A stretch of 64,000 nucleotides of DNA from Escherichia coli (GCF_030013205.1 NZ_CP122649.1); one strand, 5' to 3'; counted from the first letter of the stretch, positions 2 through 54,046 are shown. Made by a program: numbers and translations. Notes: generated from the letters alone by a model not told the origin.

Positions 2-1381
2 CTTGCACCTGTAACTTCAGAAGTCGATGAGATCATTCATCAAGCTCTAAGTTGCAAAAGTACGCAAAATTGCGATTCTCTGGCGCGTAAAACTCTGGCT
101 CTTTTAGAGCGTTTAAGGGATGAAGCAAAAGAGAAACAGCAAGAAGAGGAGCAGTCGAAAGACCCGCATGACGATACAGATGAATCATCTGGCTCTGAGA
201 ATGAACCTGATACCGAACCCAATGGTGATAGCCAGGGTGAAGGGGATGGTGATAAAGAAGGTCAAGGCGATGATTCTGGTGATGGTAAGGCGCCTGCGGA
301 AGGTAATGGGTTACCGGACCAATCCGGAGGGGATGAACAAAATGCTGAGAACTCTAACGGCGAACCTGATGGTGAGTCTGAAGGTGATGAATCGGCGACC
401 CCCGGCTCGGATGATGCTGACTCGACACCTTCCCTAAACGACAGTTCAAATGGAAATTCTTCTGATGGGGAAAGTAACTTTTCTCCTGAACAGTGGGATA
501 TGCTTGCCAAATTGCTGGATGATTTTTTAAACAGTGATGAGGAAAGCGAGGATTTTCATGAGGTTCTTGCAAAAGAGATCTCCGTAATTGCTGCCAGTGT
601 GTCGGATGAGGTTAAAGCTGAATTTGGTGCAAGTGAGTGGGATGTTCCAGATTTGAACATTGATCTGAATGTCTACAATGAAGCATTAAATATCAGCCAG
701 ACCCTTGGGGCAGATTTATCTGTTTTACAGCAGGTAAAAATGCGTGGTCAATTTAAAACCCGTGATAGAGGCTTGTCATTCGATATTAATCGACTGATCC
801 AGTCTCCGATGGGTGTTAGGGATGTATTTCGGTCACAAAGCGAATCTAAAAACCGGGGCCACGTCGGCTTGGTCATTGTTCGTGATATTTCAGGTTCAAT
901 GAGTCTGGAACACCGTTATATCCATGCAATTAAGACTGACCTTGCATTAACTCTGGCAATTGAAGCTATTTCAAAAATGCATGTTGCTAATGTGATTTAT
1001 CCGTTTGTAGACAAAGATTTTGAAGTTATCAAAACGTTTGATGAAAACGCGGAAGAGAAACTTTCAAAATTCTCACTTGGCTGCAAGGGCAATAATACCC
1101 CAACGGGTTCTGCATTAAATGCTGCTTTAGAGTTGTTACTTGAAAGCCAGTTTGACAGGAAAATTGTTTTCCTTATTACTGATGGTTATCCGACTGAGTC
1201 GGCTTACACCATTAATGATGTTTTTTCAGTTGCTGAAAGTAACGGCATTGAAATCGCTGGTGTTGGTATTAAAACTGATGTGTTGATGGGTTTTAATGAG
1301 GGCACCTTCGTAAATGTTGATGATATTTCTTTATTGCCGAATGAGGTCAGTAAATTAGTACATCAAATTCTATCTAATTAA
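2..1381 (+). CDS. CobT-like vWA-domain protein, 5' end outside window
   Basis: Frame is open from nt 2 and continuous with tracked ORF 500..1381. A D/E/G/S-rich acidic linker (~nt 150-480) is followed by vWA/MIDAS-type motifs DISGSMS, TPTGSAL and FLITDGYP. The CobT-like call is by architecture recall only. Confidence 0.7.
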   Translation, partial: LAPVTSEVDEIIHQALSCKSTQNCDSLARKTLALLERLRDEAKEKQQEEEQSKDPHDDTDESSGSENEPDTEPNGDSQGEGDGDKEGQGDDSGDGKAPAEGNGLPDQSGGDEQNAENSNGEPDGESEGDESATPGSDDADSTPSLNDSSNGNSSDGESNFSPEQWDMLAKLLDDFLNSDEESEDFHEVLAKEISVIAASVSDEVKAEFGASEWDVPDLNIDLNVYNEALNISQTLGADLSVLQQVKMRGQFKTRDRGLSFDINRLIQSPMGVRDVFRSQSESKNRGHVGLVIVRDISGSMSLEHRYIHAIKTDLALTLAIEAISKMHVANVIYPFVDKDFEVIKTFDENAEEKLSKFSLGCKGNNTPTGSALNAALELLLESQFDRKIVFLITDGYPTESAYTINDVFSVAESNGIEIAGVGIKTDVLMGFNEGTFVNVDDISLLPNEVSKLVHQILSN

Positions 1382-1386
1382 ACTCT

Positions 1387-1452
1387 ACCCAATCGGGGCA
1401 AAACGACGCCCGGTTGGGTCGCTTTGCTCCCTGAAGGATTAAGGAGCAATAT
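1387..1452 (+). promoter_or_regulatory. Structured leader with stem A/A' and an anti-SD hairpin upstream of the 73-aa gene
   Basis: 1387-1397 acccaatcggg pairs with 1409-1419 cccggttgggt (one G.U). 1424-1430 ttgctcc pairs with 1443-1449 ggagcaa, covering the aggag SD. 1395-1401 ggggcaa is an alternative partner of ttgctcc. Confidence 0.55.
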
Positions 1453-1715: not shown

Positions 1716-1770
1716 TTGTGGGTTTCTCCCTGTTTTCTGCATCGCAGAGGGCATTGAGAAACCCACAATG
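1716..1770 (+). promoter_or_regulatory. Leader hairpin occluding the start codon of the primase-like gene
   Basis: 1716-1728 ttgtgggtttctc is perfectly complementary (13 bp) to 1756-1768 gagaaacccacaa, which ends on the A of ATG 1768. An inner 5-bp stem tctgc/gcaga lies at 1736-1748. Confidence 0.55.
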
Positions 1771-3021
1771 CCAGATAAGAGAGAACAAATGACTTATGCA
1801 TCCCAGGCTGTTAAGCGTACACCACATGAAGTCACTGACCACTTTATAAAAATGGTTCACGCTCGTATAGCGGAAGTATCAGGCTGGCGCTATGTATTCG
1901 ATAGAATACCGGCATTTAAAGACGCTTGTGATAAAGCACCTGGCCAGGTTCCTTGCCCATTTAGTGGGGTCGGGAAATCAAAGTTCCGGTTCCGTAAAAA
2001 GGACCTCTTTACCGGTTGTGCCATTCACAATGATTTTCCAGTGAATGCATTTTGTGACGGTATTGATGTATTGGCAGAGTACTACAAGCTGAGCAAGACC
2101 CAGACTTGTAAGAAGATCCTGACTGATTTCTTTGGGATGGATTTGTACGCTCCATTAACTGATGCGGATCTCGAAAGTGAACGTCGTTATAAATCAACAG
2201 TTCGTGCAACCGAAACGCTTGACAGCGATGAAGTTGAAAAACGAGGGCGTAAACTTGAAGTGATATATCACTATACCGGTGAAATCAAACCTGAGAGCCC
2301 TGTGTGGGTGTATCTCCGAAATCGAGGTCTTAATCGAGTTCTGAGCAACCTTCCCAAGGATTTAGGTCTGAACAAACGACTTTACTACATGGATAAGTCA
2401 CTGGAAAAACCCACGATTTACCCGGGAATGATCGCAATTTATCGCGATACCCGTGGGCGTCCTCTGACAATCCACAGAACGTTCGTCGAGTTAAATGGTG
2501 ATAAGGCACATGTTGAGAATCCGAAACTGATGATGAAACCGCCTGCCGATATGACTGGCGGCTCAATTCAGCTGTACGATCCACACTTCAATCCAGGTAC
2601 CCGTACCTGGACGTTAGGTGTGGCTGAAGGCATAGAAAACGCGCTGTCAGTTACTGAAGCGACTTCAACACCGTGCTGGGCCGCGAGCTCTGCCTGGTGC
2701 CTTGAAAACGTTGAAGTGCCGGATAGTCTCCTGCCTCCCCCTGGTGTGAAAGTAATACAGTTTTACATCTGGGCGGATAAGGATCTTGTGAATACAAAAG
2801 GCACTTCCCCGGGAATGGAGTCAGCTAAACGACTTCAGGAACGTATGAAAGAGTTTTTTGCAAAGCGATATCCCACTTCAGAGCTGACAATTAAAGTCTT
2901 TGAACCTGATTTCGATATTCCTGTAGGGAAGAAAGGAGTCGACTGGAACGATGTACTAAAATTAACAGGACCGGATGGATTCCCCGTAAAATGGGCTCCT
3001 GAATGTCTTGCTCAGCTTTAA
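1768..3021 (+). CDS. primase-like protein (degenerate Zn-ribbon + Toprim domain)
   Basis: 417 aa. The N-terminal PCPFSG..KFRFR..GCAIHN resembles a primase Zn-binding ribbon. The Toprim-type acidic motifs are LGVAEGIENALSV (E) and IWADKD (DxD). Confidence 0.65.
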   Translation: MPDKREQMTYASQAVKRTPHEVTDHFIKMVHARIAEVSGWRYVFDRIPAFKDACDKAPGQVPCPFSGVGKSKFRFRKKDLFTGCAIHNDFPVNAFCDGIDVLAEYYKLSKTQTCKKILTDFFGMDLYAPLTDADLESERRYKSTVRATETLDSDEVEKRGRKLEVIYHYTGEIKPESPVWVYLRNRGLNRVLSNLPKDLGLNKRLYYMDKSLEKPTIYPGMIAIYRDTRGRPLTIHRTFVELNGDKAHVENPKLMMKPPADMTGGSIQLYDPHFNPGTRTWTLGVAEGIENALSVTEATSTPCWAASSAWCLENVEVPDSLLPPPGVKVIQFYIWADKDLVNTKGTSPGMESAKRLQERMKEFFAKRYPTSELTIKVFEPDFDIPVGKKGVDWNDVLKLTGPDGFPVKWAPECLAQL

Positions 3022-3027
3022 ATCCGA

Positions 3028-3070
3028 TAACTCCCCCGCCTTTTCAGGCCGGGGGGGTTATCTCTTTAGT
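3028..3070 (+). terminator. GC-rich hairpin after the primase-like gene
   Basis: taactcccccgcc / ggccgggggggtta stem followed by the T-rich tctctttagtgtttattt. Confidence 0.5.
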
Positions 3071-3294
3071 GTTTATTTACGTTAAATCCTAAACAGATAA
3101 TCCGATTTCCTTCGTGAAAATCACCTGTTATTCAGGTTTTTTTTACGGCTGAGATGCTTGCTCAGTTTAATAAATGTGCGATACATCTGGCTACGGTCGG
3201 TTGTATGACATGGTATATCCATAAAACTTAAAACCCCTGACGGGAGTATTACCGTTAGGGTGATGCTCATCGTTAAATATCGGAGAGCATTGTT

Positions 3295-3819
3295 ATGAAT
3301 ATTGAAAATCAAGATTTATTTAATACGTTCGCTGCTGTGATTTCATCTCATATCGTTGAGCAACCATCTTCGTGTTATTACCTTCATGATAATGAAATTG
3401 ACTTCACGATTTTAAAACACAGCATAATAGATAAAGACAAAAACCTGTTGTACGTTATTCGTCCTTCAGGAACCTGTTTGTTGCGTTGTGATAAATACTT
3501 CTTTCCGAATTACTATCTTACAAGTCGTGGAGATTATAAAGCATTTAAGTATGTGCATTTTAATCTTGCAACACGAGAAGCGGAAGAAATCACCTGGCAG
3601 CAAGCTTTTGAAATTTTGTCCAAGCCGGGAAGACCTCCATTAAGAGGTTCACTTGGTAAATTTGATTATTTAAAACTTGTTATTGATGATCTTCGTGCGC
3701 GAGGGTATGCCGATTTCCTTCCAGCATACAACCTTGATGGCCTTCGTCACTTTGCAGTAAAGGATGAGCGACCATCACTTGTCAGTTATATCGACAATGT
3801 CATGGCACTTTGCGCATAA
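3295..3819 (+). CDS. hypothetical protein (174 aa)
   Basis: ORF track; SD-like ggagag 9 nt upstream; no motif recognised. Confidence 0.55.
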   Translation: MNIENQDLFNTFAAVISSHIVEQPSSCYYLHDNEIDFTILKHSIIDKDKNLLYVIRPSGTCLLRCDKYFFPNYYLTSRGDYKAFKYVHFNLATREAEEITWQQAFEILSKPGRPPLRGSLGKFDYLKLVIDDLRARGYADFLPAYNLDGLRHFAVKDERPSLVSYIDNVMALCA

Positions 3820-3843
3820 AGATAACACATATTTTTACTACAT

Positions 3844-3867
3844 CCCTGATGGCACCTCCCATCGGGG
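3844..3867 (+). promoter_or_regulatory. Leader hairpin (partial member of the CCCAyyGGGG leader family)
   Basis: ccctgatgg (3844-3852) pairs with ccatcgggg (3859-3867), 9 bp with one G.U. It lies 30 nt upstream of ATG 3897. Confidence 0.4.
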
Positions 3868-3896
3868 TGGCCCTCAGAGTTGAATCTGGAGGTCTT

Positions 3897-4775
3897 ATGA
3901 AATTAGCTACAGATCTGGTCAATGCGGTTCTGATAAAGAATGGCATTGTACCAACTTCCATTAATGAGTTGCCTGTAACGTCGCTGGTAAAGCCATTGAC
4001 ACAAGTGCATCTCAGCCTGTATCTGAAAACAACGCATTTATCTCAGTTCGTCCCTGACTACGTTGAGTCTCTGAAAGATTGTCCGGTTTCGTATGATATC
4101 GGCCTTGAACTTCAGCAGTGTATCAACAGTGCTGAATTGCTCTGTGAAGACATGGAGTCACTTGAGTTTATCTCTGTATGGATAGAGCTCTATACGTGTA
4201 ATTCAAAGCAACAGCGGTTTGAGAAAAGTAACTTTTCTTTTCGAACTGAAGATATCGAGCTGGCTAAGATGCTGTCTTGCTCGCATGAAATCTTAATAAG
4301 TCAGGCGGCTTGTTTCTGGCTTTTGTATTTTGAAGATTTCATGAAATATGTTCGTAATAGGCTCTGTGCATTACTCAGACAGGTTTTAATTTTGATTGCA
4401 GGACTGCGAAATGTATACCTGCAACGGAATGAAGATCAGTTGATTAAGAGAGTTAAGCACGGGAATGAAATGCTGGAGGTGACTCTTAAAGCTGTTGCAC
4501 TATGTTCAATAGAAAGGTATCTGAAATCATATGCCTCTTTACGAACAGAAGCGGCGGCTTCTGGGTTTATCAAATGCATTCAGTCTTATATCAGTACTGG
4601 TTGGAGACATGGCTATATAGTCTGTCAATATTCAAAAAATGGACGGTCTCTTGGTAAGTCATTACCACTTTTTATAAAAGAGACATCTGAGCATAATATA
4701 CAGAAACGTGTCAATCGCCTTATATCTTCCACGATTTCGGGGCGAAATAAAGATTTAGGTCTTTACGATTTCTGA
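3897..4775 (+). CDS. hypothetical protein, paralogue family member P1 (292 aa)
   Basis: In-frame ATG at 3897 with SD ggagg, preferred over the tracked start 3810. The N-terminus MKLATDLVNAVLIKNGI resembles the N-termini of the next four genes. Confidence 0.6.
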   Translation: MKLATDLVNAVLIKNGIVPTSINELPVTSLVKPLTQVHLSLYLKTTHLSQFVPDYVESLKDCPVSYDIGLELQQCINSAELLCEDMESLEFISVWIELYTCNSKQQRFEKSNFSFRTEDIELAKMLSCSHEILISQAACFWLLYFEDFMKYVRNRLCALLRQVLILIAGLRNVYLQRNEDQLIKRVKHGNEMLEVTLKAVALCSIERYLKSYASLRTEAAASGFIKCIQSYISTGWRHGYIVCQYSKNGRSLGKSLPLFIKETSEHNIQKRVNRLISSTISGRNKDLGLYDF

Positions 4776-4783
4776 TTAACATT

Positions 4784-4848
4784 ACCCATCCGGGGATTAC
4801 ATCCCTGATGGGTGTAATCCCATTTTTTATTTAAGTGAGGATTACATG
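4784..4848 (+). promoter_or_regulatory. Three-way leader switch upstream of P2
   Basis: A 4784-4795 pairs with A' 4802-4813 (11 bp, 1 mismatch). B gggattaca 4793-4801 pairs with B' tgtaatccc 4813-4821 (9 bp perfect, followed by a U-run). B' also pairs with C ggattaca 4839-4846 (SD plus the A of the ATG). Confidence 0.6.
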
Positions 4849-5781
4849 AAAATTATTGAGAAAATCATTAATGCATTTCTGATATCGCGTAAACATTCAG
4901 TGAAGGTCAGTAATGTTATCTGCTTGAGTGGCACCGACGGTAAATTTACTGGAATATGCTGTGACGCCGATGTTTCATTTGATTTTCTTTATTCGTATGC
5001 CCCCGCATACAGTTCAACATTTTTAGATATCCCGTTTCCTGGGTTTGAAGACCAGGACATCGCGGATTGTGTTAAATGTCAGTTAGATGTAGTTAAAAAT
5101 AAACGGAATCGGTCTTTTTTAATTGACCATATTAGATTTCCAGTTTCCTCAAGGGAAGGATTCACTCTGACACGCGGTGATAGTTACGACGTGACTGAAT
5201 GTGAATATAATAAGGAACGATTGCTACATCTGACCCGACAAGGACGTTTTTGTGAAGACTATCTCACGTTCAAGGATGGCCTGAGTTCCTTCTTTTCATT
5301 TGTGAATTTCGAATTACATGAAATAGTGAAGGAAGGTATACGTTTGGCACTTGATGTTTTAAACAAGATTACATCTGATCAACCAGACCGTCTTATAAAA
5401 GACTTTAAGTATCATGATTGCTTCGGCAGTTATAATGTACAAATATTTTCTAAGGGTCTGCCAGTTGATATCCTTGAAACGATGATTGCACCTGATAGGT
5501 TGTTGTCTAACTTGTCAGGTAGTCGTCAGATTATGAAAAATGCAAGTCGCTATCTTAAAGGCTTTGCCCTCAGTAATCGTGTTTACATGAAATACGGATG
5601 GCGTTTAGCAGATGTTGACACATCTGACTATGCGAAAGTTATGTCAGATAGAGAAATGCATGCCAGAGATGATCTTAAGGCGTTTTGCAGTGTCTTTTTT
5701 AAAGAGTGTTTCGCATCCGGAAAATATGAATACGAAGCATACCTGAGTGAAAGACAACACGCGATTCGTAACGGGTATTAA
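4846..5781 (+). CDS. hypothetical protein, paralogue family member P2 (311 aa)
   Basis: ORF track; SD gagga. It shares MK.I.KII.A.L at the N-terminus and the block SGSRQIMKNASRYLKGF with P3 (SGADKFLNHVNRYLSGR). Confidence 0.7.
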   Translation: MKIIEKIINAFLISRKHSVKVSNVICLSGTDGKFTGICCDADVSFDFLYSYAPAYSSTFLDIPFPGFEDQDIADCVKCQLDVVKNKRNRSFLIDHIRFPVSSREGFTLTRGDSYDVTECEYNKERLLHLTRQGRFCEDYLTFKDGLSSFFSFVNFELHEIVKEGIRLALDVLNKITSDQPDRLIKDFKYHDCFGSYNVQIFSKGLPVDILETMIAPDRLLSNLSGSRQIMKNASRYLKGFALSNRVYMKYGWRLADVDTSDYAKVMSDREMHARDDLKAFCSVFFKECFASGKYEYEAYLSERQHAIRNGY

Positions 5782-5803
5782 TACTTATTATCAACTTATC
5801 TAA

Positions 5804-5861
5804 TCCCTGAGGGAATTCTTCCCTTGGGGAGGATTCCCTCTTAACCGAGGGCTACAAAATG
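5804..5861 (+). promoter_or_regulatory. Three-way leader switch upstream of P3
   Basis: A 5804-5814 pairs with A' 5820-5830 (11 bp, two G.U). B gagggaattc 5809-5818 pairs with B' ggattccctc 5831-5840 (10 bp). B' ccctc also pairs with the SD gaggg at 5847-5851. Confidence 0.6.
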
Positions 5862-6779
5862 AAAGCGATTTATAAAATAATTGAAGCGATGCTGGTGAAA
5901 ATGGGCTTTGAAGGTGCCGTGATCCAAAGTGTCAATCTGGAAACGGGTGTGATTCAGAGTCTAGTTGTTAAGGCTGATATTCCTGTCCGGACTTTAATGC
6001 CGCATTTAAGGCGATATCTGCGCGATTGTGAGCCTTTATGGGGACATGACGTGGATTACCACCCTATAGCACAATATTGCTCAGGAGCTGCGTTGTTGAA
6101 GGCTGGGCCGGTCACTCTTGAAACCTTTCGGTTTGAGGTTTCAGTGTCAACTGCTCACCTGCGGCTTGTGGATGTTGAGCCGGACTGTCTAAATGAGGGT
6201 GTGAACCGTGAAAAACTGGAGTATGTATATTACCGCTCCAGCAATGCAGACAAGGATCTAATACTTGGTATGGTTGAAAAAGGACATAATTTTATCAACC
6301 ATCTGCATGAACTTTTACGCTCGCGCTTATCAACGGCTTTGCCGCTGATTTTCGCAGTTACAGAAAAGATTGCGGAGAGTTCAGTTCCACAAGTAGTCAC
6401 CAGCTTTTTCAGTGTTGACCATCAAATCAATGCCCAGATAGTAGTCGAACCTGTACCCGTTTCAGTCGCAGACCAGATAATTTCTGCTGACTGGAATGTG
6501 TGTAGTGTTTCAGGAGCGGATAAGTTCCTGAACCATGTTAATCGTTATCTGTCGGGTAGGGTGATGAAGCGGCGTATTTACGCTGTTATAGAAGCTTGCG
6601 ACGGTGGATCTTTATCCCTCAATGCGAACTTAGGTTGCTTTACATCACCTCTTCTCGTAACTGAGTATAAAATGGTTCAGTCACACTCTTCATCGCTTTA
6701 TCGAAAGGCTATAAATAACTCGCTTAAGCAAGTTAATTCGTATGCTCCAGAGCATTCAGATGACCTGCTTTCTATGTAA
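5859..6779 (+). CDS. hypothetical protein, paralogue family member P3 (306 aa)
   Basis: ORF track; SD gaggg 7 nt upstream; sequence blocks shared with P2. Confidence 0.7.
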   Translation: MKAIYKIIEAMLVKMGFEGAVIQSVNLETGVIQSLVVKADIPVRTLMPHLRRYLRDCEPLWGHDVDYHPIAQYCSGAALLKAGPVTLETFRFEVSVSTAHLRLVDVEPDCLNEGVNREKLEYVYYRSSNADKDLILGMVEKGHNFINHLHELLRSRLSTALPLIFAVTEKIAESSVPQVVTSFFSVDHQINAQIVVEPVPVSVADQIISADWNVCSVSGADKFLNHVNRYLSGRVMKRRIYAVIEACDGGSLSLNANLGCFTSPLLVTEYKMVQSHSSSLYRKAINNSLKQVNSYAPEHSDDLLSM

Positions 6780-6787
6780 TTAATTTT

Positions 6788-6854
6788 ACCCATTGGGGAA
6801 GCGTATTCCCCGTGGGGGTTGCTTCCTTTCTTCATTAAAGAGGAAGTGAATATG
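6788..6854 (+). promoter_or_regulatory. Three-way leader switch upstream of P4
   Basis: A 6789-6799 pairs with A' 6807-6816 (10 bp, one bulge). B ggaagc 6797-6802 pairs with B' gcttcc 6821-6826. B' cttcct 6822-6827 also pairs with the SD aggaag at 6841-6846. Confidence 0.6.
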
Positions 6855-7787
6855 TTTAATGAAAGTGATGATAAAAACTTTGTTAGTGCAATGCTTAAAT
6901 GTCAACTTGGCCTGAATATAAGCCAAGAGGATATTACAATATATGACAAAGAAAATCATTTTGAACAACTTTCTTTTAAAGCAAATGTGGCGCTTGATGA
7001 TTTGTTATTTTATCTGGATTTATATATATCAGAATTGATTAAGCATAATGCGCCGTATTCTGAAACTGAAGTCCTTCGGACTAAAATCAAATACTTTCTT
7101 AAAGTATATGAAAAGTCTGGTTTTCAGAACATAAGAATTCGCGGTTATCATAACGCGCACAGTACTATAGATATTGTCGATATCGCATCATTAATATTGG
7201 CGGGGTCTGTACCGGAGTCTGAACATGATTCAATAGATCCTGTTTTAAGAAAGGAAATCTATCAAAATCGCATGAGTGTTGAGGGTAAAGTTCTCATTGC
7301 CCGTTTTGCACTTAAGCAATTTTTCCATTCTGATTTTGGTGATTTCATCTTAGAGTTCGAGAAAAGTATCTCCAAGTGTTTGAATACTTCTCTCCAGATA
7401 ATTAAATCTGTAAAGAACTCATTTAACCGTTTAGGTCAATATCAATATCAGCGTCGTGTAAAAGATGACCTGACTTTGCATCTTGATTTGAATACAGATG
7501 AATACCCGGCCTGTATGCCAGACCTTTACATCGGTTTCAAGGAGTCTGAAGGGACGACGGGAGTGTATCGCGATGATGAAAAAATCATTCGTCTTTATAC
7601 TGGCGTTAGTTCCGGAAAGGATGTTCCTGTAATGATGACCGTTCGATTCACTGGCTGTGACGGGAGTGTTTTGTCTGAATCATCGCACGGTACTTTCTGT
7701 TCCGTGGGACCTACCGGCCGAGTGCAGGTTTGTGACAGAGTTGCGTTGGTCCAAGAAGCGGTCGAAGAGTTACGGGATGTTGTTTAA
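6852..7787 (+). CDS. hypothetical protein, paralogue family member P4 (311 aa)
   Basis: ATG 6852 with SD gaggaag, preferred over the tracked start 6819. Clear similarity to P5: GKVLIARFALKQFFHSDFGDFI vs GQVLIARFALEKFWDTHFIGLI, and YQYQRRVKDDLTLHLDL vs YSYTRRITDELSLHISL. Confidence 0.7.
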   Translation: MFNESDDKNFVSAMLKCQLGLNISQEDITIYDKENHFEQLSFKANVALDDLLFYLDLYISELIKHNAPYSETEVLRTKIKYFLKVYEKSGFQNIRIRGYHNAHSTIDIVDIASLILAGSVPESEHDSIDPVLRKEIYQNRMSVEGKVLIARFALKQFFHSDFGDFILEFEKSISKCLNTSLQIIKSVKNSFNRLGQYQYQRRVKDDLTLHLDLNTDEYPACMPDLYIGFKESEGTTGVYRDDEKIIRLYTGVSSGKDVPVMMTVRFTGCDGSVLSESSHGTFCSVGPTGRVQVCDRVALVQEAVEELRDVV

Positions 7788-7902
7788 CCCTTGTTTTTTA
7801 CCTCTTCATTCCAAAAAGTAACTTTGTTCTACCAAATGACCGCGCTACCTATTCTGATCAACTTGCAGGAAAGAATGGCGCAGTAGTACATATTTTTAAT
7901 CC

Positions 7903-7966
7903 ACCCACTGGGGAAGTCGCTCCCCTGTGGGGCACTTCCTTTAATAATCCTGAGGAAGTGAAGATG
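7903..7966 (+). promoter_or_regulatory. Three-way leader switch upstream of P5
   Basis: A 7905-7915 pairs with A' 7921-7931 (10 bp, 1 mismatch). B ggaagt 7913-7918 pairs with B' acttcc 7934-7939. B' cacttcct 7933-7940 also pairs perfectly (8 bp) with the SD region aggaagtg at 7953-7960. Confidence 0.6.
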
Positions 7967-8920
7967 ACTAATTCTACTGATAACCAGAACTACGTTCGTG
8001 CAGTACTGGCAGGCATTGGTATTGATTTTGATGAAACAGAGATGTTTATCAGTGTCTCTCATTGCCAGAGCGACGAAGTTTCGTTTACATGCAGTATATC
8101 AGCCAGTGAGTTAAGAGAATCTGCGGGGCATTATGTGGATACTCTTAATGATACCCAACTGGCTGGCCTGGATGCGGATGCACTCAAGAAGCGACTGGTT
8201 TACTTCCTTGAGGTTTTCGACCTGGTTTCCGGTCAATATCTGGATATTTCCGGTAAACATTTCGCGACCAGCCGCTTTGAATACGACGATGTCTGTAGTG
8301 AGATCCTGAGTAACTCTGCGGACAGCGCCCAGCCAGGTGGCTATGATCGTGAAGAGTACAAAAGACTGATGGAAGTTGATGGTCAGGTTTTAATCGCCCG
8401 ATTTGCACTGGAAAAATTCTGGGATACGCATTTTATTGGGCTTATCAACTATGTATCAGATGAAATAACATCCGGGCTTTATGAGGTTTATCGCACGTTC
8501 AGTGATATAAACATGGCCGGTTATACATTTAGTGAGTATTCATATACGCGTCGTATTACCGACGAACTTAGTTTGCATATTTCACTTAAAGAGGACGATT
8601 TCGAAGAGCAATTAACCGATTGTTATATGGATGAAACAACGCTGCCGTCTGGCAAGGTGGTTTTACGCCGTAATAATGAATCAATTATTGGGATTTATGA
8701 AGGATATGCTTCAAAATCTTACTTTCCTATGGTTGCTAATGTTAGAGTCCTTGATACAGATGGTGAAGTTGTTACTGAACTTTACCAAGGGGTGAATGTA
8801 TCAGAATTAGCTGGTGGTCGGATTAAAATCCATGACCGTCAGGAATTAATTTCTGAGGTGTTCGCTAACTTACGTGAATTCATCCCAGCATCAGAGGATA
8901 AAATCTTTGATGCGGCATGA
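7964..8920 (+). CDS. hypothetical protein, paralogue family member P5 (318 aa)
   Basis: ATG 7964 with SD gaggaag (the tracked start 7958 is a GTG two codons upstream); similarity to P4. Confidence 0.7.
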   Translation: MTNSTDNQNYVRAVLAGIGIDFDETEMFISVSHCQSDEVSFTCSISASELRESAGHYVDTLNDTQLAGLDADALKKRLVYFLEVFDLVSGQYLDISGKHFATSRFEYDDVCSEILSNSADSAQPGGYDREEYKRLMEVDGQVLIARFALEKFWDTHFIGLINYVSDEITSGLYEVYRTFSDINMAGYTFSEYSYTRRITDELSLHISLKEDDFEEQLTDCYMDETTLPSGKVVLRRNNESIIGIYEGYASKSYFPMVANVRVLDTDGEVVTELYQGVNVSELAGGRIKIHDRQELISEVFANLREFIPASEDKIFDAA

Positions 8921-8966
8921 GTCCTGAAGGTTGAATTATATATTTTCAGGTTTTTATACTTCTAAG

Positions 8967-8996
8967 AAGGCACGGTTATCCGTGCCTTTTTTTTTG
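8967..8996 (+). terminator. Rho-independent terminator ending the P1-P5 operon
   Basis: Stem aaggcacgg / ccgtgcctt with loop ttat, followed by a run of 9 T. Confidence 0.8.
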
Positions 8997-9332
8997 CTTT
9001 CGTCAAAACTTGCATTGATTTTACAATTTTACAACGTTCTTACTGCCCTATATGTTTTACGGTACTGTACTCTTGGCACCGTTACATGTAAGCCTTCCAT
9101 TACCTTCTTCAACCAAACCTAGCCTAATTTACATCCTTCCAGCTGTTTCCTTCTCTGCTTCTTTTACTCGAATGTTTTGCCCCTTGCTGACGTTTCCGGC
9201 AGCACACAGTCCGAATGCTGGAGCCTCCAAATTACTTTTTACTTCTTTTGTTTCGGTTTCGCGAAAATAGGTCTCTTATCTGAAAAATGGATCGTTAGAG
9301 ATTTGTATACTGTTTAAAACAAAGGAGTCACT

Positions 9333-9602
9333 ATGCCTGCCACTACAATCCTGAGCAATAACCCTGTGAATTCGGTCTTCTCTAATGACAATAGCCATTT
9401 CACATACCGGCATATTGATTTCAGTATTGAGCTACTGCTTTCTTCAGGAACTGACTCACAACTGGAATATCTGTTTCTCAAACCGGCGGCTGAAGTAAAG
9501 ATCGATTTACAGCGCCGTTTAGCTAGTGGGGAACGTTACGTTACAACCGAGAGTTGTGACAATTTTAGCGAAGTTGATGGCTGCATGGGACACGATTGCT
9601 GA
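9333..9602 (+). CDS. hypothetical protein (89 aa)
   Basis: ORF track; strong SD aaggag 7 nt upstream; first gene of a packed plus-strand operon. Confidence 0.6.
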   Translation: MPATTILSNNPVNSVFSNDNSHFTYRHIDFSIELLLSSGTDSQLEYLFLKPAAEVKIDLQRRLASGERYVTTESCDNFSEVDGCMGHDC

Positions 9603-9656
9603 GGACTTTATAACGGCAGGCGTCCGATTTAATACAACACGAGACACTATCACCTA

Positions 9657-10247
9657 ATGATGACTGAATCGTTCTTTGACTGGGTTGTGTATTGCATCAC
9701 AGGCGTAATACTGGCATCTGCGTTCCTCGAAGGAAAAAGAACCCGTTTTCCGGCTGCATTTTTTTACGGAAGCATTGTGCTGCTGGTCGTTTTGATAGTG
9801 GCCGGTGCCCTCAACTGGTGGTTCTACCGTTCTAAATTCGGCTCAGTTGTCGTTATTTTTGCCGCGACAACGCTGTTAATGACCCGATTCAGATTGGTTA
9901 TTTATGCGTTCAGGTTTCGGACGCTGGTGGCAGATCTCCAATCACATGTAGCCAAGGGATTCAGGATAATCCTTGTCTTACCCGAAAATGAAGACGAGAA
10001 GACCGTTTTGCTTAGCAAATTGTCGAAAGTGATACATTCTGGGACGTTGTTTTATACCCGAACAGCTCTGGGTCCATATTCTGGGGATCTCCTGCATGCT
10101 CTGGGACAAAAGCACCGAAATGGCGAGGGCTATCTGCTTCTTTGTGAGCAACAACTTCCGGCTCGAACCTGGCTAAGCACTGTAGAAAACGGTCAACCAG
10201 AGAAGTCTATTGCAGTTAATTTTCATTCGATCCCTGATATGGAGTGA
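9657..10247 (+). CDS. hypothetical membrane protein (196 aa, about 3 N-terminal TM helices)
   Basis: ORF track; hydrophobic stretches VVYCITGVILASAFL, FFYGSIVLLVVLIVAGAL and VVVIFAATTLLM. Confidence 0.55.
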   Translation: MMTESFFDWVVYCITGVILASAFLEGKRTRFPAAFFYGSIVLLVVLIVAGALNWWFYRSKFGSVVVIFAATTLLMTRFRLVIYAFRFRTLVADLQSHVAKGFRIILVLPENEDEKTVLLSKLSKVIHSGTLFYTRTALGPYSGDLLHALGQKHRNGEGYLLLCEQQLPARTWLSTVENGQPEKSIAVNFHSIPDME

Positions 10248-10254
10248 TACCCCT

Positions 10255-10512
10255 ATGAGCAATACAGATTCACAGACCGTACCAGCTGATGCCCTGTGTG
10301 AAAACAGTTCTCAGGTGAAAATTCAGCTAAGTCGAAGCGCCTCACGAGCATTGACGACGGCGAAAGAAATTCTTGAAACCCGAGGGCTGGTATCCGTATC
10401 CACTGAAGACCTTGTTCAGGCCTGTCTCGAAGAAAATCAGCCACTCGACCTGGCAAGTATCTATCTTGAGCACCGGCTAAAACAGAAGGGAACCAGTATC
10501 TGTGAATTTTAG
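10255..10512 (+). CDS. hypothetical protein (85 aa)
   Basis: Internal ATG of tracked ORF 10210..10512, with ggag 10 nt upstream. It starts 8 nt after the previous stop. Confidence 0.5.
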   Translation: MSNTDSQTVPADALCENSSQVKIQLSRSASRALTTAKEILETRGLVSVSTEDLVQACLEENQPLDLASIYLEHRLKQKGTSICEF

Positions 10513-10585
10513 TGTTTTCCAACCTATTGGGGAAATTCCGGAATGTGTTTATATAGCTGTAAGTAAAGCACTCTACAGGTAAATA

Positions 10586-11122
10586 ATGAAAAGCAAAATT
10601 CACTCTTCAGGAACGTCCGGCACGAAACGAGTACTTAAAACGGATATTGCGTTGCCTCTGCTTTGTTGGGTGTTCACCAGTCCATTCAGTAACTGGACTG
10701 ATAAGTTTTTTACCGGCACAGAAGTGCCGGAGGGCTCGCTGCCGGGTCTAGAACAGGCGCCTGAGGCTATCTTCCGATTTGTGCTCAATGACGAAGGTTT
10801 TGATGTTGGTTTTGACGCGGTGGGAATGGATCTCTGTTGTTTCTCTATCCCGCTTTCGACGATGCCCACAAAGAATCTGGACGACGAAGAGACGTTGTCG
10901 AGGCTTACCGGCGACGTGATACACGGCGTCCTGCTTTCGCTTCCGGAGTACATTGAAATGCCAGACAGGCTGGTCTATCAGCTAACTGATGAGGTCATGG
11001 CGTTCAATTCACACTGTGGCAACGGAATTCTACATGGATGGACGACGGCTCAAGAGTTGTGGCGAAACGAGATCCTGCCACGCACCACTATTTTGATGCA
11101 GCAGACATCAGTCATTCACTGA
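10586..11122 (+). CDS. hypothetical protein (178 aa)
   Basis: ORF track; same strand as neighbours; weak SD. Confidence 0.5.
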   Translation: MKSKIHSSGTSGTKRVLKTDIALPLLCWVFTSPFSNWTDKFFTGTEVPEGSLPGLEQAPEAIFRFVLNDEGFDVGFDAVGMDLCCFSIPLSTMPTKNLDDEETLSRLTGDVIHGVLLSLPEYIEMPDRLVYQLTDEVMAFNSHCGNGILHGWTTAQELWRNEILPRTTILMQQTSVIH

Positions 11123-11138
11123 GTTCCGGGGGCTCTGG

Positions 11139-11594
11139 ATGAAAAAGCGACTTTACCTTCTTGAATGGAAACTTCGTGAGACAAGAGCCTGGTTAGGATG
11201 GATGGTGTTCTGGATTATCATCAGTTTTATGTTTTTATCAGCGATGTTCATGACAGGTCATTTGTTAAACAAAGTTGTCCTCCAGCCCGTTTGGCTGTGT
11301 ATCTGGTCTTTACCCTGGCTGGGCTTCTTGTTGAAGGTACGCGTGACCGAAATGGATAAAGGGCTCGTGAATACACTTCAGCTCGGAGATCTGCCGGTTT
11401 TCCGCTGGAGTCGTTCTGTAGTTCCTGGCACCTGGTCTGTTGACAGAATTAATGGACGCTACCGGTTGAACCGGATTGGAACGGATGGTTTGACGGTACA
11501 CTATCCGTGGCGCCTGTACTATCAGCCTTTGTTCCTGACACCGGATAAGCAGATTTCTGATATTAACGGACGTGAACATGAACGAAAATTCTGA
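11139..11594 (+). CDS. hypothetical membrane protein (151 aa, 2 TM)
   Basis: ORF track; SD-like ggggg; TM-like WLGWMVFWIIISFMFLSAMFM and VWLCIWSLPWLGFLL. Confidence 0.55.
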   Translation: MKKRLYLLEWKLRETRAWLGWMVFWIIISFMFLSAMFMTGHLLNKVVLQPVWLCIWSLPWLGFLLKVRVTEMDKGLVNTLQLGDLPVFRWSRSVVPGTWSVDRINGRYRLNRIGTDGLTVHYPWRLYYQPLFLTPDKQISDINGREHERKF

Positions 11595-11805
11595 CGCAGT
11601 AGTGAGTGCCGCTACTTCCTGCCTGCTGTATGTGCGTGAAATCGAAAGGTCAGGCCCCGGTGAAATGCCGGTGTCATATTCAAATGAGCTTATCCAGAGA
11701 TGGCTTAGTTCGGCTGAACGTCGTAATTTGCATTCCCGCCACAGCTTGCGTTCGATTCGTACAATTCTGAAGCACGCAAGGAAGAGCCGTCAGCCTGATT
11801 TTTAG
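11578..11805 (+). CDS. hypothetical protein (75 aa)
   Basis: ORF track (tracked start is GTG 11572, ATG at 11578); overlaps the end of the upstream gene, suggesting translational coupling. Confidence 0.45.
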   Translation: MNENSDAVVSAATSCLLYVREIERSGPGEMPVSYSNELIQRWLSSAERRNLHSRHSLRSIRTILKHARKSRQPDF

Positions 11806-11811
11806 AGCGTG

Positions 11812-12087
11812 ATGCATTTGCTGGTGGAAGGGAAGGGTGTAATCCCGGATGTTTCAGTATCGGATTTGGGCAATGTGCAGAACATACGTAATGAACTGAT
11901 TGGTCTGGGTTGGTGGGTGAAGTTTGGTGTAAAGCAGGACTGGCAGCGCATCAATCTGCAACGCCAGCCGGTCAGTTTTGGCCTTTTGAATGACCTTAAT
12001 CGTTGTTTTCGGCATGACGGTCAGCAGGTTGAACCTCTGCCACTTTATACAACCGGCAATCCCGGGGAATTGCGGAAGGTGCTGTAA
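11812..12087 (+). CDS. hypothetical protein (91 aa)
   Basis: ORF track (GTG 11809 / ATG 11812); starts 4 nt after the previous stop. Confidence 0.45.
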   Translation: MHLLVEGKGVIPDVSVSDLGNVQNIRNELIGLGWWVKFGVKQDWQRINLQRQPVSFGLLNDLNRCFRHDGQQVEPLPLYTTGNPGELRKVL

Positions 12088-12175
12088 AAGTACAACTACC
12101 GGCTGCATATCGACTCTTCAGAAGTCGTTGAAGACGTAACGGTGTTGCGCTGCTTTATTGAAACCGGAGTGATGA

Positions 12176-13135
12176 ATGGCCAGTGAAGATTTACTCTTTT
12201 ACCGTGACCGGATTCTGGAGCGAATTGAAAAGCTCAGATCCTTTCTGAATGACCATCAGCCGGTGATGGCCGAGCTGATGACTGTGGGGACCGTCACACG
12301 ACACGAAGAGCGGTTGAAAGAGGTGAACCCCATCGAGGTGAGTACTATTTCAGATGCCTCCGTGGATGAAATTATCCGTGTTATTCAGGATTTCTGTATC
12401 GATGACATTGATGTACTCAGCAGGAATTCGACGAAAGTGACAACCAAATACCCGGGTTTGATTATTGTTCCTGAGGGTGCCGAACAGCTGAGCGGAATTA
12501 TTTGCGATATAAATGATGCCAAAAGTGACTTTGCCTCTGCAATGAAAAGGGTGAATTCGGAGAAACACATCCGGTTTAAGGAAGTTCACCGTAAGCTTCC
12601 CGGTCTGGTGACTGCGCATTCCACTCGCAAAATTCTGTTTGTGGAAGAACAGCTCAAAAAAGTTACTTTTGCCTGGCGGCTAAACCGAAACCAGGTAAAA
12701 ACAAACGCAAGTGATCTCATCGCGATGCTGGATAAGCGTCGTTTAGTAGCGGTCAAATCGCCCGTGACAACTGACCTGACAGTGGTGGCGAACATCGATA
12801 GAGCGAAGGCATTACTGGAAAGAAAAGTACTGAGAGACGGCGAAGGGTATCGCCTTTGTCGAACCAATACCTTCCCGGTTCCGATAGCGCATTTGTTCAC
12901 ATACCGGCCTGAAGGCAAGGAGCGTGGAAGTAGCAAATATGCCGAGACTGATTACAAGGTGGTGAAAGCCTCATTACCCATTTTTGGCGTCGGACAAAAG
13001 CCAACAATTAAAAGACTTCAGGACTGGGTGCCAGCGCAGGATGAAGCACTGTCCAATGGTCGAAGGAGCAACCATAGCTACACGGAACTTGTACCCGGTG
13101 CAGATCTTGGCATTTTCATTATGAGAAAGGTCTGA
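12176..13135 (+). CDS. tus: Tus-like replication terminus-binding protein homologue
   Basis: 319 aa, similar in length to E. coli Tus. The block IRFKEVHRKLPGLVTAHSTRKILFV matches the recalled Tus segment [24 protein letters not shown]. SD ggag. The call rests on recall of the Tus sequence. Confidence 0.6.
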   Translation: MASEDLLFYRDRILERIEKLRSFLNDHQPVMAELMTVGTVTRHEERLKEVNPIEVSTISDASVDEIIRVIQDFCIDDIDVLSRNSTKVTTKYPGLIIVPEGAEQLSGIICDINDAKSDFASAMKRVNSEKHIRFKEVHRKLPGLVTAHSTRKILFVEEQLKKVTFAWRLNRNQVKTNASDLIAMLDKRRLVAVKSPVTTDLTVVANIDRAKALLERKVLRDGEGYRLCRTNTFPVPIAHLFTYRPEGKERGSSKYAETDYKVVKASLPIFGVGQKPTIKRLQDWVPAQDEALSNGRRSNHSYTELVPGADLGIFIMRKV

Positions 13136-19394: not shown

Positions 19395-19803
19395 GTTGGA
19401 GTCATTACCCAGTAATGCGACAAATGCAATGAAAGAAGTAGCGAAAGTCCTTTTTTCAGCCCGAAGTGACCCGGAGCTCATGAAATTTATAATGGATTAT
19501 ATTAATAACCACAAACTGCATTGAAGGTAATTGCGGTGTATAAAACAAAGCCATTTTCGGCCAAAAAATGAGTCAGCTGAAGAAACGCTCGTTAATTCCG
19601 AATCCGTCCAGATTAATATGGCACACTGCTGGTGGAGGTTTTGGCAATCGGAAAAGTAACTTTTCACCCGTGTCTAATCATCATCGTTTTATCAATCCGC
19701 TCAGTTACGGTATTAAAATCTCACGAAAAATAGTCTTCTTATCGAAGTGTCATGCTGTCTTCGCCCGATATAGTGAAGGTATGTATTCAGCGGGGGCACT
19801 GAC

Positions 19804-27089: not shown

Positions 27090-27396
27090 CCAAGATACAA
27101 GATGACCACAAAAATGAATAAGCCGCAATGTTGTTTTGTGTGTTGAACGTCCTGATGGAGCCTTTGACATTTACACTGGCCGTTTTATACAGTTCCACCA
27201 AATTGACAACAGTAGAAGAAAAATTGTTGAAATAAGTGATCCTGACCTGGTGGGGATGACTTATTCAATCCCGATGGTTTTTAACGGAGGGAAGTTCAGT
27301 GGTCAAGGGGTTACCTGTCTCTCGCTCCCCGCAGTAACATTAATAAAAGTAACTTTTCCTTCCCGAACTTATCAGGAGGGGCAGGAACAAATCACA

Positions 27397-53530: not shown

Positions 53531-54046
53531 ATGACTCTGTTGAAAAAGTTACTTTTGCCGACATTAATCGTCCTTTTCCCGGCGGCAACTCTGGCTGCCC
53601 AATCGTCATTTGAAGCGAAAGTGGTAAAAATTATCGACGGGGACACAATCACCGCGCTCGATGGTCAGAATACAAGCATCAAAATCCGCTTGTACGGTAT
53701 TGATGCCCCCGAAAGTAAGCAGGCCTTTGGACAAAAGTCTAAACAAGCGTTGAGCGCCGCGATTGCTGCACAGAATATTACGGTAATAGACCACGGACCT
53801 GATATTTACGGCAGGATGCTGGGAACCATTTGGCTTGATGGTTATGACATAAACGCCTCAATGGTAGACAGCGGCTATGCATGGGTATACCGGTTTGACG
53901 GTAATGCCATCGTCCCAAACTATCTGAAATTCGAAGCTTCAGCTCAGAAAGCAGTTAAAGGCCTCTGGGTAGATCCTAATCCCGTTGCCCCCTGGGAGTG
54001 GCGCCAGCAAAACCAGAAACCTCAAAAGACGAAAAGCAGGGGGTGA
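53531..54046 (+). CDS. nuc: secreted staphylococcal-nuclease (SNase)-like thermonuclease
   Basis: ATG 53531 with SD ggaga; signal peptide MTLLKKLLLPTLIVLFPAATLAA. SNase motifs KVVKIIDGDTI, IRLYGIDAPE and GRMLG. Confidence 0.85.
   Translation: MTLLKKLLLPTLIVLFPAATLAAQSSFEAKVVKIIDGDTITALDGQNTSIKIRLYGIDAPESKQAFGQKSKQALSAAIAAQNITVIDHGPDIYGRMLGTIWLDGYDINASMVDSGYAWVYRFDGNAIVPNYLKFEASAQKAVKGLWVDPNPVAPWEWRQQNQKPQKTKSRG

What the first reader, a model, noticed from the sequence alone, without database searches (positions are those of the whole stretch)
3295..8920. Tandem array of five ~300-aa paralogous genes of unknown function
P1-P5 (3897, 4846, 5859, 6852, 7964) are similar in size (292-318 aa) and co-directional. 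They share an N-terminal helix motif: x-V/I-x-A-x-L-x-K/x-x-G. Pairwise blocks are clear. P2/P3 share SGSRQIMKNASRYLKGF vs SGADKFLNHVNRYLSGR. P4/P5 share GKVLIARFALKQFFHSDFGDFI vs GQVLIARFALEKFWDTHFIGLI and YQYQRRVKDDLTLHLDL vs YSYTRRITDELSLHISL. I see no catalytic, TM or signal motif. A diversified five-copy family under individual leader control on a conjugative plasmid could serve as a set of decoys or inhibitors (for example anti-defence) or as variable specificity factors.
Basis: seen in the sequence. Interest (0 to 1): 0.65.

Follow-up and report, generated by a model that had tools for sequence, protein, structure and literature searches.

The report
Orphan paralogue array in IncHI plasmids
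Five neighbouring ~300-residue genes on an IncHI1 resistance plasmid are ancient duplicates of one orphan protein family with no known relatives or fold; they switch on about 100-fold together with the conjugation genes, but their function is still unknown.

Summary
The window is IncHI1 backbone, 100% identical to pHCM1 over the finding. P1-P5 (3897, 4846, 5859, 6852, 7964) are real genes: they are under purifying selection and were detected by mass spectrometry. P4/P5 and P2/P3 are plain paralogues. P1 joins them through profile comparison and an iterative HMM search that recovers exactly the 26 family members and nothing else. P0 (3295-3819) is unrelated but always comes first in the same unit.

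Published R27 microarrays show P0-P5 (R0203-R0198) near-silent in wild type, derepressed 38-115-fold in an htdA mutant at 25 C, and off at 37 C. Copy number across related backbones is 0, 2, 4 or 5. P5 is split by IS2 in transfer-proficient R27.

The array is therefore an accessory, conjugation-co-regulated set of non-enzymatic cytoplasmic proteins. An anti-defence or inhibitor role is compatible but untested. Each cistron carries a conserved leader that sequesters its Shine-Dalgarno sequence.

The parts
1388..1452 (+). Two-hairpin leader of the 73-aa gene: a GC-rich hairpin followed by an anti-SD:SD hairpin. It shows that the leader type also occurs upstream of the array.
1768..3021 (+). Toprim/DUF7146 (primase-like) gene. 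It is the last gene of the upstream AAA-DUF3150-VWA-toprim cluster (R27 R0204).
3038..3145 (+). Two terminator-like hairpins with T runs (3038-3058 and 3123-3137) in the 273-nt toprim-P0 spacer.
3230..3294 (+). Two-hairpin leader of P0 (CCCTGACGG...CCGTTAGGG, then GATGCTC pairing with GGAGAGCAT).
3295..3819 (+). P0 (174 aa; R27 R0203). It is unrelated to P1-P5 but is the conserved first gene of the unit, and it is present even in backbones that lack the array.
3844..3896 (+). Two-hairpin leader of P1.
3897..4775 (+). P1 (292 aa; R0202). It is the bridging member of the superfamily.
4785..4845 (+). Leader of P2. Three co-varying segments: GGGGATTAC / GTAATCCC / GAGGATTAC.
4846..5781 (+). P2 (311 aa; R0201). 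AlphaFold model has pLDDT 74.
5805..5858 (+). Leader of P3.
5859..6779 (+). P3 (306 aa; R0200).
6789..6851 (+). Leader of P4 (GGGGAAGCG / TTGCTTCC / GAGGAAGTG).
6852..7787 (+). P4 (311 aa; R0199). AlphaFold model has pLDDT 83 and pTM 0.79. Net charge is -11.
7815..7825 (+). One copy of the recurring motif AAAGTAACTTT in the long P4-P5 spacer. It is conserved in five lineages.
7904..7963 (+). Leader of P5.
7964..8920 (+). P5 (318 aa; R0198 plus R0194 in R27, where IS2 splits it). pI 4.4, net charge -31.
8964..8999 (+). Intrinsic-terminator-like hairpin plus T run that closes the P0-P5 unit.

Best explanation
P0-P5 is a discrete accessory unit at the far end of the gene cluster that follows trhI on IncHI plasmids, and it belongs to the thermoregulated, HtdA-repressed conjugation regulon.

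What is shown:
- The five ~300-aa products are old tandem duplicates of one orphan superfamily with two clades, P1/P2/P3 and P4/P5.
- They share a new alpha/beta N-terminal domain of ~200 residues built around a very long helix, and they carry divergent C-terminal modules.
- The paralogy, the regulation, protein expression, dispensability, and copy-number variation between lineages are all shown.

What is inferred:
- They are soluble, non-catalytic binding proteins made only when the plasmid is transfer-competent, meaning a derepressed donor or, by inference, a fresh transconjugant that has no HtdA yet.
- Each paralogue uses its own C-terminal module to bind a different macromolecular partner, either host or competitor factors or transferred DNA/protein. 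This would help transfer or establishment under natural conditions.
- The highly acidic P5 is the best candidate for a nucleic-acid mimic.

Leaders:
- The structure and covariation are shown in silico. Every cistron has a leader in which a GC hairpin is followed by an anti-SD:SD helix, and freeing the SD costs 8-12 kcal/mol (4.5 for P3).
- It is inferred that translation therefore needs coupling to the upstream ribosome or a trans-acting factor.
For: Paralogy. The P4 and P2 models share the same secondary-structure order.

Real, selected genes: dN/dS is 0.16-0.24 between IncHI1 and pNDM-CIT-like plasmids. Each of P0-P5 was detected by MS in at least one IncHI1 plasmid at 24 C (PMC5390554 Table S3 rows 25-30, mapped by gene order).

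Regulation (PMC7366339 supplement), with the mapping R0203-R0198 = P0-P5 confirmed on R27:
- Wild-type R27 at 25 C: 27-129 units.
- htdA mutant at 25 C: 2740-6669 units, a 38-115-fold increase.
- At 37 C, in both strains: 9-64 units.
- The upstream cluster R0204-R0210 behaves alike (19-53-fold).
- Downstream R0184-R0192 are constitutive.

Accessory status:
- P5 is interrupted by IS2 in R27.
- P3 is frameshifted in pP10159-4.
- The array has decayed in a Photorhabdus plasmid.
- The array is absent from pNDM-MAR-type plasmids, which keep P0, its leader and the terminator.
- A deeper lineage has two copies and another has four.

Non-enzymatic and cytoplasmic: no family hit, no hydrophobic segment, and the invariant residues are mostly hydrophobic.

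Leaders.
Against: No partner, phenotype or localisation is known, so the binding-protein mechanism is inference from absence of catalytic signatures and from context.

[quoted passage not shown] That is not the signature of arms-race factors.

The array is not near oriT.

No structure could be predicted for P1, and both models rest on shallow alignments of 15 and 11 sequences.
Confidence: 0.4

Rival explanations
1. The five paralogues, possibly with P0, are subunits of one hetero-oligomeric cytoplasmic assembly that serves conjugative DNA processing. It might, for example, scaffold the AAA-ATPase/VWA/primase-like module encoded just upstream. The leaders would enforce sequential, stoichiometric translation.
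For: - The paralogues are similar in size, keep a fixed order in four lineages, and share an N-terminal domain with a 40-65-residue helix suited to coiled-coil pairing.
- The same leader design links them to the upstream cluster, and they are co-regulated with it.
Against: - Related backbones work with 0, 2 or 4 copies.
- R27 conjugates with P5 split by IS2 (R27's conjugation proficiency is from PMC7366339).
- P3 is frameshifted in a plasmid typed as conjugative.
- In three of five spacers the upstream stop codon lies 24-115 nt from the leader hairpin, too far for direct unwinding by a terminating ribosome.
Confidence: 0.2
2. They are lipid- or hydrophobic-ligand-binding proteins with a TULIP/BPI-like fold, a long helix wrapped by a curved sheet. 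They would support membrane or pilus biogenesis during conjugation.
For: - H-pili contain stoichiometric phosphatidylglycerol (PMC13031515).
Against: - There is no signal peptide or membrane segment.
- P5 is strongly acidic.
- The array is absent from pNDM-MAR-type plasmids, which are also typed as conjugative.
Confidence: 0.07
3. They are functionless or decaying duplicates, hitch-hiking ORFs with no role.
For: - IS2 sits in P5 of R27, P3 is frameshifted in pP10159-4, and the array has decayed in a Photorhabdus plasmid.
- Wild-type expression is near the detection limit.
Against: - dN/dS is 0.16-0.24.
- All five orthologue groups are kept with the same lengths down to 33-50% identity.
- P5 is covered at 80% or more in 1393 of 1405 plasmids that carry it.
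- Derepression is tight, about 100-fold.
- The proteins were detected by MS.
- The leaders are conserved, with compensatory changes.
Confidence: 0.03

Closest known systems
Anti-defence gene islands in plasmid leading regions (Samuel et al. 2024, PMC11541004)
   Same: - Accessory, mostly orphan, non-enzymatic-looking genes on conjugative plasmids.
- Expression is tied to transfer.
- Presence varies between related plasmids.
   Different: - The array is at least 58 kb from the relaxase/oriT region in R27.
- It matches no known anti-defence family.
- It is controlled by the HtdA circuit in donors, not shown to be driven by single-strand promoters.
- No anti-defence activity has been tested.
DNA-mimic anti-restriction proteins (ArdA, Ocr)
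   Same: P5 is strongly acidic (pI 4.3-4.5, net -29 to -33) in all lineages with five copies, and P4 is moderately acidic.
   Different: - There is no sequence match and no fold match.
- P5 is about twice the size of ArdA (own knowledge).
- P1-P3 are near neutral.
TULIP/BPI-like and Aha1-N-like alpha+beta folds
Accessory operons of unknown function in the activator-controlled regulons of related MOBH/MPF-F elements (SetCD of SXT/R391, AcaCD of IncC). This comparison rests on my own knowledge.
   Same: Genes of unknown function are co-regulated with transfer genes on relatives of IncHI. A toprim-domain gene is also present on IncC.
   Different: No P-family homologue was found outside IncHI-type backbones in 1.84 billion proteins. 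The IncC toprim neighbourhood carries nothing similar.
SD-sequestering mRNA leaders (RNA thermometers, translational-coupling hairpins)
   Same: In each leader the Shine-Dalgarno sequence is paired with an upstream anti-SD segment.
   Different: - The leader is repeated before at least 12 consecutive cistrons.
- It has a third, SD-like segment inside a preceding GC hairpin, which allows an alternative pairing.
- No melting is predicted between 15 and 42 C.
- It matches no Rfam family.

Membership tests
Any curated protein family (Pfam-A, NCBIfam, PHROGs) | Significant profile-HMM match | tested here: not met
   No family reached its cut-off for P0-P5 even with max E-value set to 1.
Known defence or candidate defence systems (PADLOC) | Match to a PADLOC model | tested here: not met
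   Zero hits for all six proteins.
Proteins with a solved structure | Sequence-profile match to a PDB chain | tested here: not met
   Profiles A1 and A2 gave no hit with E below 1.
[not shown]
   - BFVD: best E 7.8e-3 with TM 0.18.
- Sources. AFDB was unavailable.
Leading-region anti-defence island | Location next to oriT on the first-transferred side | tested here: not met
   In R27 the relaxase and mobI lie at 103.9-108.1 kb and the array at 166.2-173.2 kb. The exact oriT position and the transfer polarity were not determined here.
Leading-region anti-defence island | Demonstrated inhibition of a defence system | not testable with these tools
   This needs conjugation or phage assays in recipients that carry defence systems.
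ArdA/Ocr-type DNA mimics | Strong negative charge | tested here: met
   Met for P5 only: net -29 to -33, pI about 4.4. P1-P3 are near neutral.
ArdA/Ocr-type DNA mimics | ArdA or Ocr sequence or fold | tested here: not met
   [not shown]
TULIP/BPI-like lipid-binding fold | Confident structural superposition on a TULIP domain | tested here: inconclusive
   [not shown]
HtdA/TrhR-TrhY conjugation regulon of IncHI plasmids | Derepressed in an htdA mutant at 25 C and silent at 37 C | tested here: met
   From published microarray data read here: 38-115-fold for R0198-R0203 and not expressed at 37 C. The gene mapping was verified on R27.
HtdA/TrhR-TrhY conjugation regulon of IncHI plasmids | Required for conjugative transfer (a tra gene) | tested here: not met
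   P5 is interrupted by IS2 in transfer-proficient R27. The array is absent from pNDM-MAR-type plasmids typed as conjugative. No targeted knock-out of P1-P4 was found.
Rfam RNA families (for the leaders) | Covariance-model match | tested here: not met
   No match overlaps any leader even at E of 1 or less.
RNA thermometer (for the leaders) | SD becomes accessible within the physiological temperature range | tested here: not met
   The predicted probability that the SD is unpaired is essentially flat from 15 to 42 C. This is an in-silico result only.

The most novel reading that the evidence does not exclude
The P family would be a new class of conjugation-coupled effectors. It would be a set of modular proteins with a previously unseen fold, made or delivered only at the moment of transfer. 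Each would neutralise a different recipient barrier or competitor element. Their production would be gated by a new operon-wide RNA device: a GC hairpin carrying an SD mimic, followed by an anti-SD segment and the SD, repeated before a dozen cistrons of the IncHI transfer regulon.
Probability: 0.2. Interest if true: 0.8.

Novelty: categorically new. Interest (0 to 1): 0.55.

Why it matters
IncHI plasmids are the main carriers of multidrug resistance in Salmonella Typhi and major carriers of mcr-1 and carbapenemase genes in Enterobacterales. At least 1400 sequenced plasmids carry this array.

The six genes are among the most strongly induced on the plasmid when conjugation is derepressed, yet nobody has assigned them a function or noted that five of them form one family. 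If they help the plasmid establish itself in new hosts, they would explain part of IncHI host range and would be targets for blocking spread.

Independently, the family offers a fold with no solved or viral match. Its leaders offer a compact, repeated, co-varying translational control element that can be tested directly.

The label 'categorically new' refers to the protein family and fold failing every membership test. It does not mean that new biology has been demonstrated.

Tried and rejected
Searches that found nothing:
- Family scans (Pfam, NCBIfam, PHROGs, PADLOC) gave no hit.
- PDB sequence-profile searches gave no hit.
- AFDB50 was unavailable, so the planned test of whether the P4 model retrieves the P1-P3 models could not be run.
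- Three word-indexed homologue searches and one exhaustive HMMER search found only IncHI-type relatives.
- The genome-contig scan returned only close relatives.
- Rfam has nothing on the leaders.

Ideas tested and rejected:
- P0 as a sixth paralogue.
- The upstream ~290- and ~330-aa genes, DUF3150, toprim, Ter and the 302-aa gene as relatives of the family.
- A leading-region location.
- Gross positive selection.
- The leaders as simple RNA thermometers.
- Direct unwinding by a terminating ribosome as the general coupling mechanism, because of the stop-to-hairpin distances.

Other dead ends:
- A single MAFFT alignment of all leaders was not in structural register, so no covariance model was built. 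Covariation was counted per orthologous leader instead.
- Literature searches found no functional study of R0198-R0203.
- The IncHI2 evolution paper did not bear on the array.
Full report
**What the window is.** The finding lies on IncHI1 plasmid backbone. Positions 3295-8920 are 100% identical to pHCM1 of Salmonella Typhi CT18 (record positions 93451-99076) and to about 200 other plasmids. Another 62 plasmids match at 80-90%.
- Upstream lie trhI, three unknown genes, an AAA_5 ATPase, a DUF3150 gene, a VWA gene, a 73-aa gene and a Toprim/DUF7146 gene (window 1768-3021).
- Downstream lie several small genes, a Tus-like Ter-binding gene (12176-13135), an integrase and hha.
- The window differs from pHCM1 by one base in the toprim-P0 spacer. 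This follows from comparing the coordinates.

**Is the paralogy real?**
- P4/P5 are obvious paralogues: 27.6% identity over the full length (E 1.7e-38) and hhalign probability 100%.
- P2/P3 are clear paralogues: BLASTP E 3.6e-8 over ~100 residues and hhalign 96.6% over ~245 residues.
- All other pairs are at noise level pairwise.

I then collected orthologues from four lineages and built family profiles. The lineages are IncHI1, the pNDM-CIT-like IncHI1B plasmid pP10159-4 (L003), IncHI2 (L002), and a fourth lineage from a Logan assembly (L015, 'X4'). The profile comparisons gave:
- P1 vs P2+P3: 91.6%, E 8e-7.
- P1 vs P4+P5: 69%, E 4e-5.
- P2+P3 vs P4+P5: 45%, E 2e-4.

Every alignment is colinear from the N-terminus. 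Reversed profiles, 20 column shuffles per pair, and four unrelated neighbour families never scored above 26, against observed scores of 37-53.

An iterative HMM search seeded only with P1 orthologues, run over 636 ORF segments from the window and the fetched loci, converged on exactly the 26 P1-P5 members. It pulled in nothing else, not even at E below 10. The bridge is a 271-aa P1-like protein from a deep lineage that also hits the P3 and P4 models.

The AlphaFold models of P4 (pLDDT 83, pTM 0.79) and P2 (pLDDT 74, pTM 0.68) have the same element order over the first ~205 residues. That order is helix, beta-hairpin, two helices, strand(s), helix, a 40-65-residue helix, beta-hairpin. The C-terminal thirds differ: beta-rich in P4, helical in P2. 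The [VI]-x-A-x-L motif in the first helix is present in all members.

The five genes are therefore one superfamily with two clades. P0 is not a member, and neither are the similarly sized upstream genes.

**Are they real genes?**
- dN/dS between IncHI1 and pNDM-CIT-like orthologues is 0.16-0.24. Flanking genes give 0.07-0.18, apart from the 73-aa gene at 0.81.
- Each orthologue group keeps its length and position down to 33-55% identity.
- They evolve somewhat faster than the flanking ATPase, VWA and toprim genes: 47-63% versus 69-77% identity between IncHI1 and IncHI2.
- In the proteomic survey of four IncHI1 plasmids (PMC5390554, Table S3), the rows that correspond by gene order to P5...P0 each carry at least one MS detection at 24 C. 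These are rows 25-30, placed between the Ter-binding protein in row 18 and the AAA ATPase in row 34.

**What do they resemble?** Nothing known.
- No Pfam, NCBIfam, PHROG or PADLOC model matches.
- PDB sequence profiles give nothing.
- Foldseek against viral models gives nothing.
- An exhaustive HMMER search of 1.84 billion representative proteins with the P4/P5 profile found 39 hits. About eleven were full length and all were the same kind of protein.
- No hydrophobic segment is long enough for a membrane span.
- Invariant positions are mostly hydrophobic.
- P5 is strongly acidic (net about -30) and P4 moderately so, in every lineage. P1-P3 are near neutral.

**Regulation.** This is the most informative external evidence. 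On R27 the genes are R0203 (P0) to R0198. P5 is split there by IS2, and its distal fragment is R0194. The R27 microarray study of Gibert et al. (PMC7366339) reports:
- Wild-type R27: 27-129 units at 25 C and 9-61 units at 37 C.
- htdA (derepressed) mutant: 2740-6669 units at 25 C, that is 38-115-fold, and 16-64 units at 37 C.

These are among the largest fold changes on the plasmid. The nine genes upstream (R0204-R0210, R0001, R0002) behave alike. The authors single these out as a low-temperature-induced cluster of unknown function. The genes downstream of P5 (R0184-R0192) are constitutively expressed and change only 2.5-10-fold.

This agrees with the sequence. A strong terminator-like hairpin follows P5 (8964-8999), and two weaker ones follow the toprim gene. 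P0-P5 is thus the distal unit of the HtdA-controlled, thermosensitive conjugation regulon. No paper in the library discusses these ORFs further.

[quoted passage not shown] Other backbones differ:

| Lineage | Content |
|---|---|
| L019 | P0 + four: P2-like, P3-like, two P4/5-like |
| L021 | P0 + two: P1-like, P4/5-like |
| pNDM-MAR-type Klebsiella plasmids (L024) | Whole syntenic backbone, a P0 homologue with the same leader, then the terminator; no ~300-aa paralogue |
| Photorhabdus plasmid (L017) | P0-P3 lost, P4 truncated, P5 split |

P3 is frameshifted in pP10159-4. R27 conjugates with P5 disrupted. On the other hand, P5 is covered at 80% or more in 1393 of the 1405 plasmids that carry it. 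The array is therefore an accessory expansion in a fixed slot between P0 and the operon terminator. It is retained by selection where present but is not part of the core transfer machinery. In R27 it lies at least 58 kb from the relaxase/mobI region, so it is not a leading-region island.

**The leaders.**
- Each spacer is 70-77 nt, except P4-P5 at 176 nt. Each contains a GC-rich hairpin of the form CCCAnnGGGG...CCCCnnTGGG.
- A short segment follows that pairs with the Shine-Dalgarno region of the next gene.
- In most leaders the 5' arm of the first hairpin mimics the SD. Examples are GGGGATTAC / GTAATCCC / GAGGATTAC before P2, which becomes GGGGATCAC / GTGATCCC / GAGGATCAC in IncHI2. The middle segment can therefore pair either way, and RNAalifold recovers that alternative helix with covariation.
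- In pHCM1, twelve leaders from the 125-aa gene after trhI to P5 fold at -24 to -37 kcal/mol, with z-scores of -3.5 to -7.7 against shuffles. The leader of the intervening AAA ATPase gene is weaker (-19 kcal/mol, z -2.3) and that of the 89-aa gene is unstructured. The genes after P5 have z near 0.
- Freeing the SD costs 8-12 kcal/mol (4.5 for P3), against 1.6-4.7 for downstream genes. This does not change between 15 and 42 C.
- Across lineages, 31 of 140 predicted pairs show compensatory double changes and 88% of cells stay paired.
- The design persists in the deep lineages and in pNDM-MAR-type plasmids.
- No Rfam family matches.

How the block is relieved is not known. The stop-to-hairpin distances of 9-10 nt in two spacers and 24-115 nt in the other three argue against simple unwinding by a terminating ribosome as the general mechanism.

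**Most likely function.** The following points are shown:
- one orphan superfamily;
- membership of the conjugation regulon;
- protein expression;
- accessory status;
- copy-number variation among deep lineages;
- structured leaders that occlude the SD.

The following is inferred. The proteins are soluble, non-catalytic binders. The conserved N-terminal domain is a common scaffold and the divergent C-terminal module gives partner specificity. They act when the plasmid is transfer-competent or newly arrived, to aid transfer or establishment. I put this at about 0.4, with a specifically anti-defence or inhibitor role as its most likely concrete form.

Rivals:
- subunits of one hetero-oligomeric DNA-processing accessory complex (0.2), weakened by the 0/2/4/5 copy series and the IS2-split P5;
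- junk (0.03), contradicted by selection and regulation.

The remainder is 'something else'.

**Novelty and verdict.** The genes have been in databases since 2000 and their htdA-dependent expression is published. Their paralogy, their restriction to IncHI-type backbones, the lack of any fold match, the copy-number series and the leader device are not described in anything I could find. Every membership test against known families failed, so I file the family as categorically new at the level of protein family and fold. I stress that no new biology has been demonstrated. Interest is moderate to high (0.55): a clinically important plasmid group, a tightly regulated orphan family, and a directly testable RNA element, but no function yet.

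Noticed in passing
window 1388-1452, 3230-3294, 3844-3896, 4785-4845, 5805-5858, 6789-6851, 7904-7963; also L001 (pHCM1) upstream of the genes at 3954, 4392, 6869, 8074, 10473: A repeated bipartite mRNA leader: a GC-rich hairpin whose 5' arm mimics the SD, then an anti-SD segment paired with the SD. It precedes at least 12 consecutive cistrons from just after trhI to P5 and is absent after P5. It shows compensatory changes across six lineages, matches no Rfam family, and is not predicted to melt between 15 and 42 C.
   Followed up: partly
window 471-481, 4225-4235, 7815-7825, 12659-12669, 19653-19663, 27346-27356, 52031-52041, 53545-53555: The motif AAAGTWACTTT (extended consensus aAAAGTAACTTTtc) occurs 8 times exactly, against 0.02 expected. 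Six copies are in one orientation, and they fall in both coding and non-coding DNA. The copy in the P4-P5 spacer is conserved in five lineages, and one also sits after the P0 terminator in a pNDM-MAR-type plasmid. It may be a protein-binding site. The plasmid encodes a Tus-like protein, and the motif shares GTAACT with the E. coli Ter core (own knowledge).
   Followed up: partly
L023 (R27) 8238-10530; L003 7082-7815; L017 10001-11741: Natural disruptions of the array. IS2 splits P5 in R27, and apparently in several E. coli plasmids with the same extra 1.3 kb. P3 is frameshifted in pP10159-4. In a Photorhabdus tasmaniensis plasmid P0-P3 are deleted, P4 is truncated and P5 is split.
   Followed up: yes
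L024 (K. pneumoniae pR48_1) 9968-12174: pNDM-MAR-type IncFIB/IncHI1B plasmids keep the whole syntenic cluster and a P0 homologue only 68 nt after the toprim gene, then a terminator. None of the ~300-aa paralogues is present. The array therefore sits in a slot that is empty in a very common Klebsiella plasmid type.
   Followed up: yes
window 12176-13135: A plasmid-borne homologue of the replication-terminus-binding protein Tus (Pfam Ter, E 7e-20). It is conserved in all IncHI-type backbones examined.
   Followed up: no
L015 5173-6138: The gene call for the P4 orthologue in this Logan contig starts 11 codons too early. The conserved MFNE start and the leader hairpin place the true start at 5206.
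   Followed up: yes
L001 (pHCM1) 3954-4331: The 125-aa gene two genes downstream of trhI has a sequence that looks OB-fold/SSB-like by eye. It was not tested.
   Followed up: no
window 3022-3294: The toprim-P0 spacer is 273 nt here and 274 nt in pHCM1, so the window is not byte-identical to pHCM1. It holds two terminator-like hairpins, and no sigma-70-like promoter was found on the + strand at the scan threshold. The source of P0-P5 transcription, whether read-through or an activator-dependent promoter, is open.
   Followed up: partly
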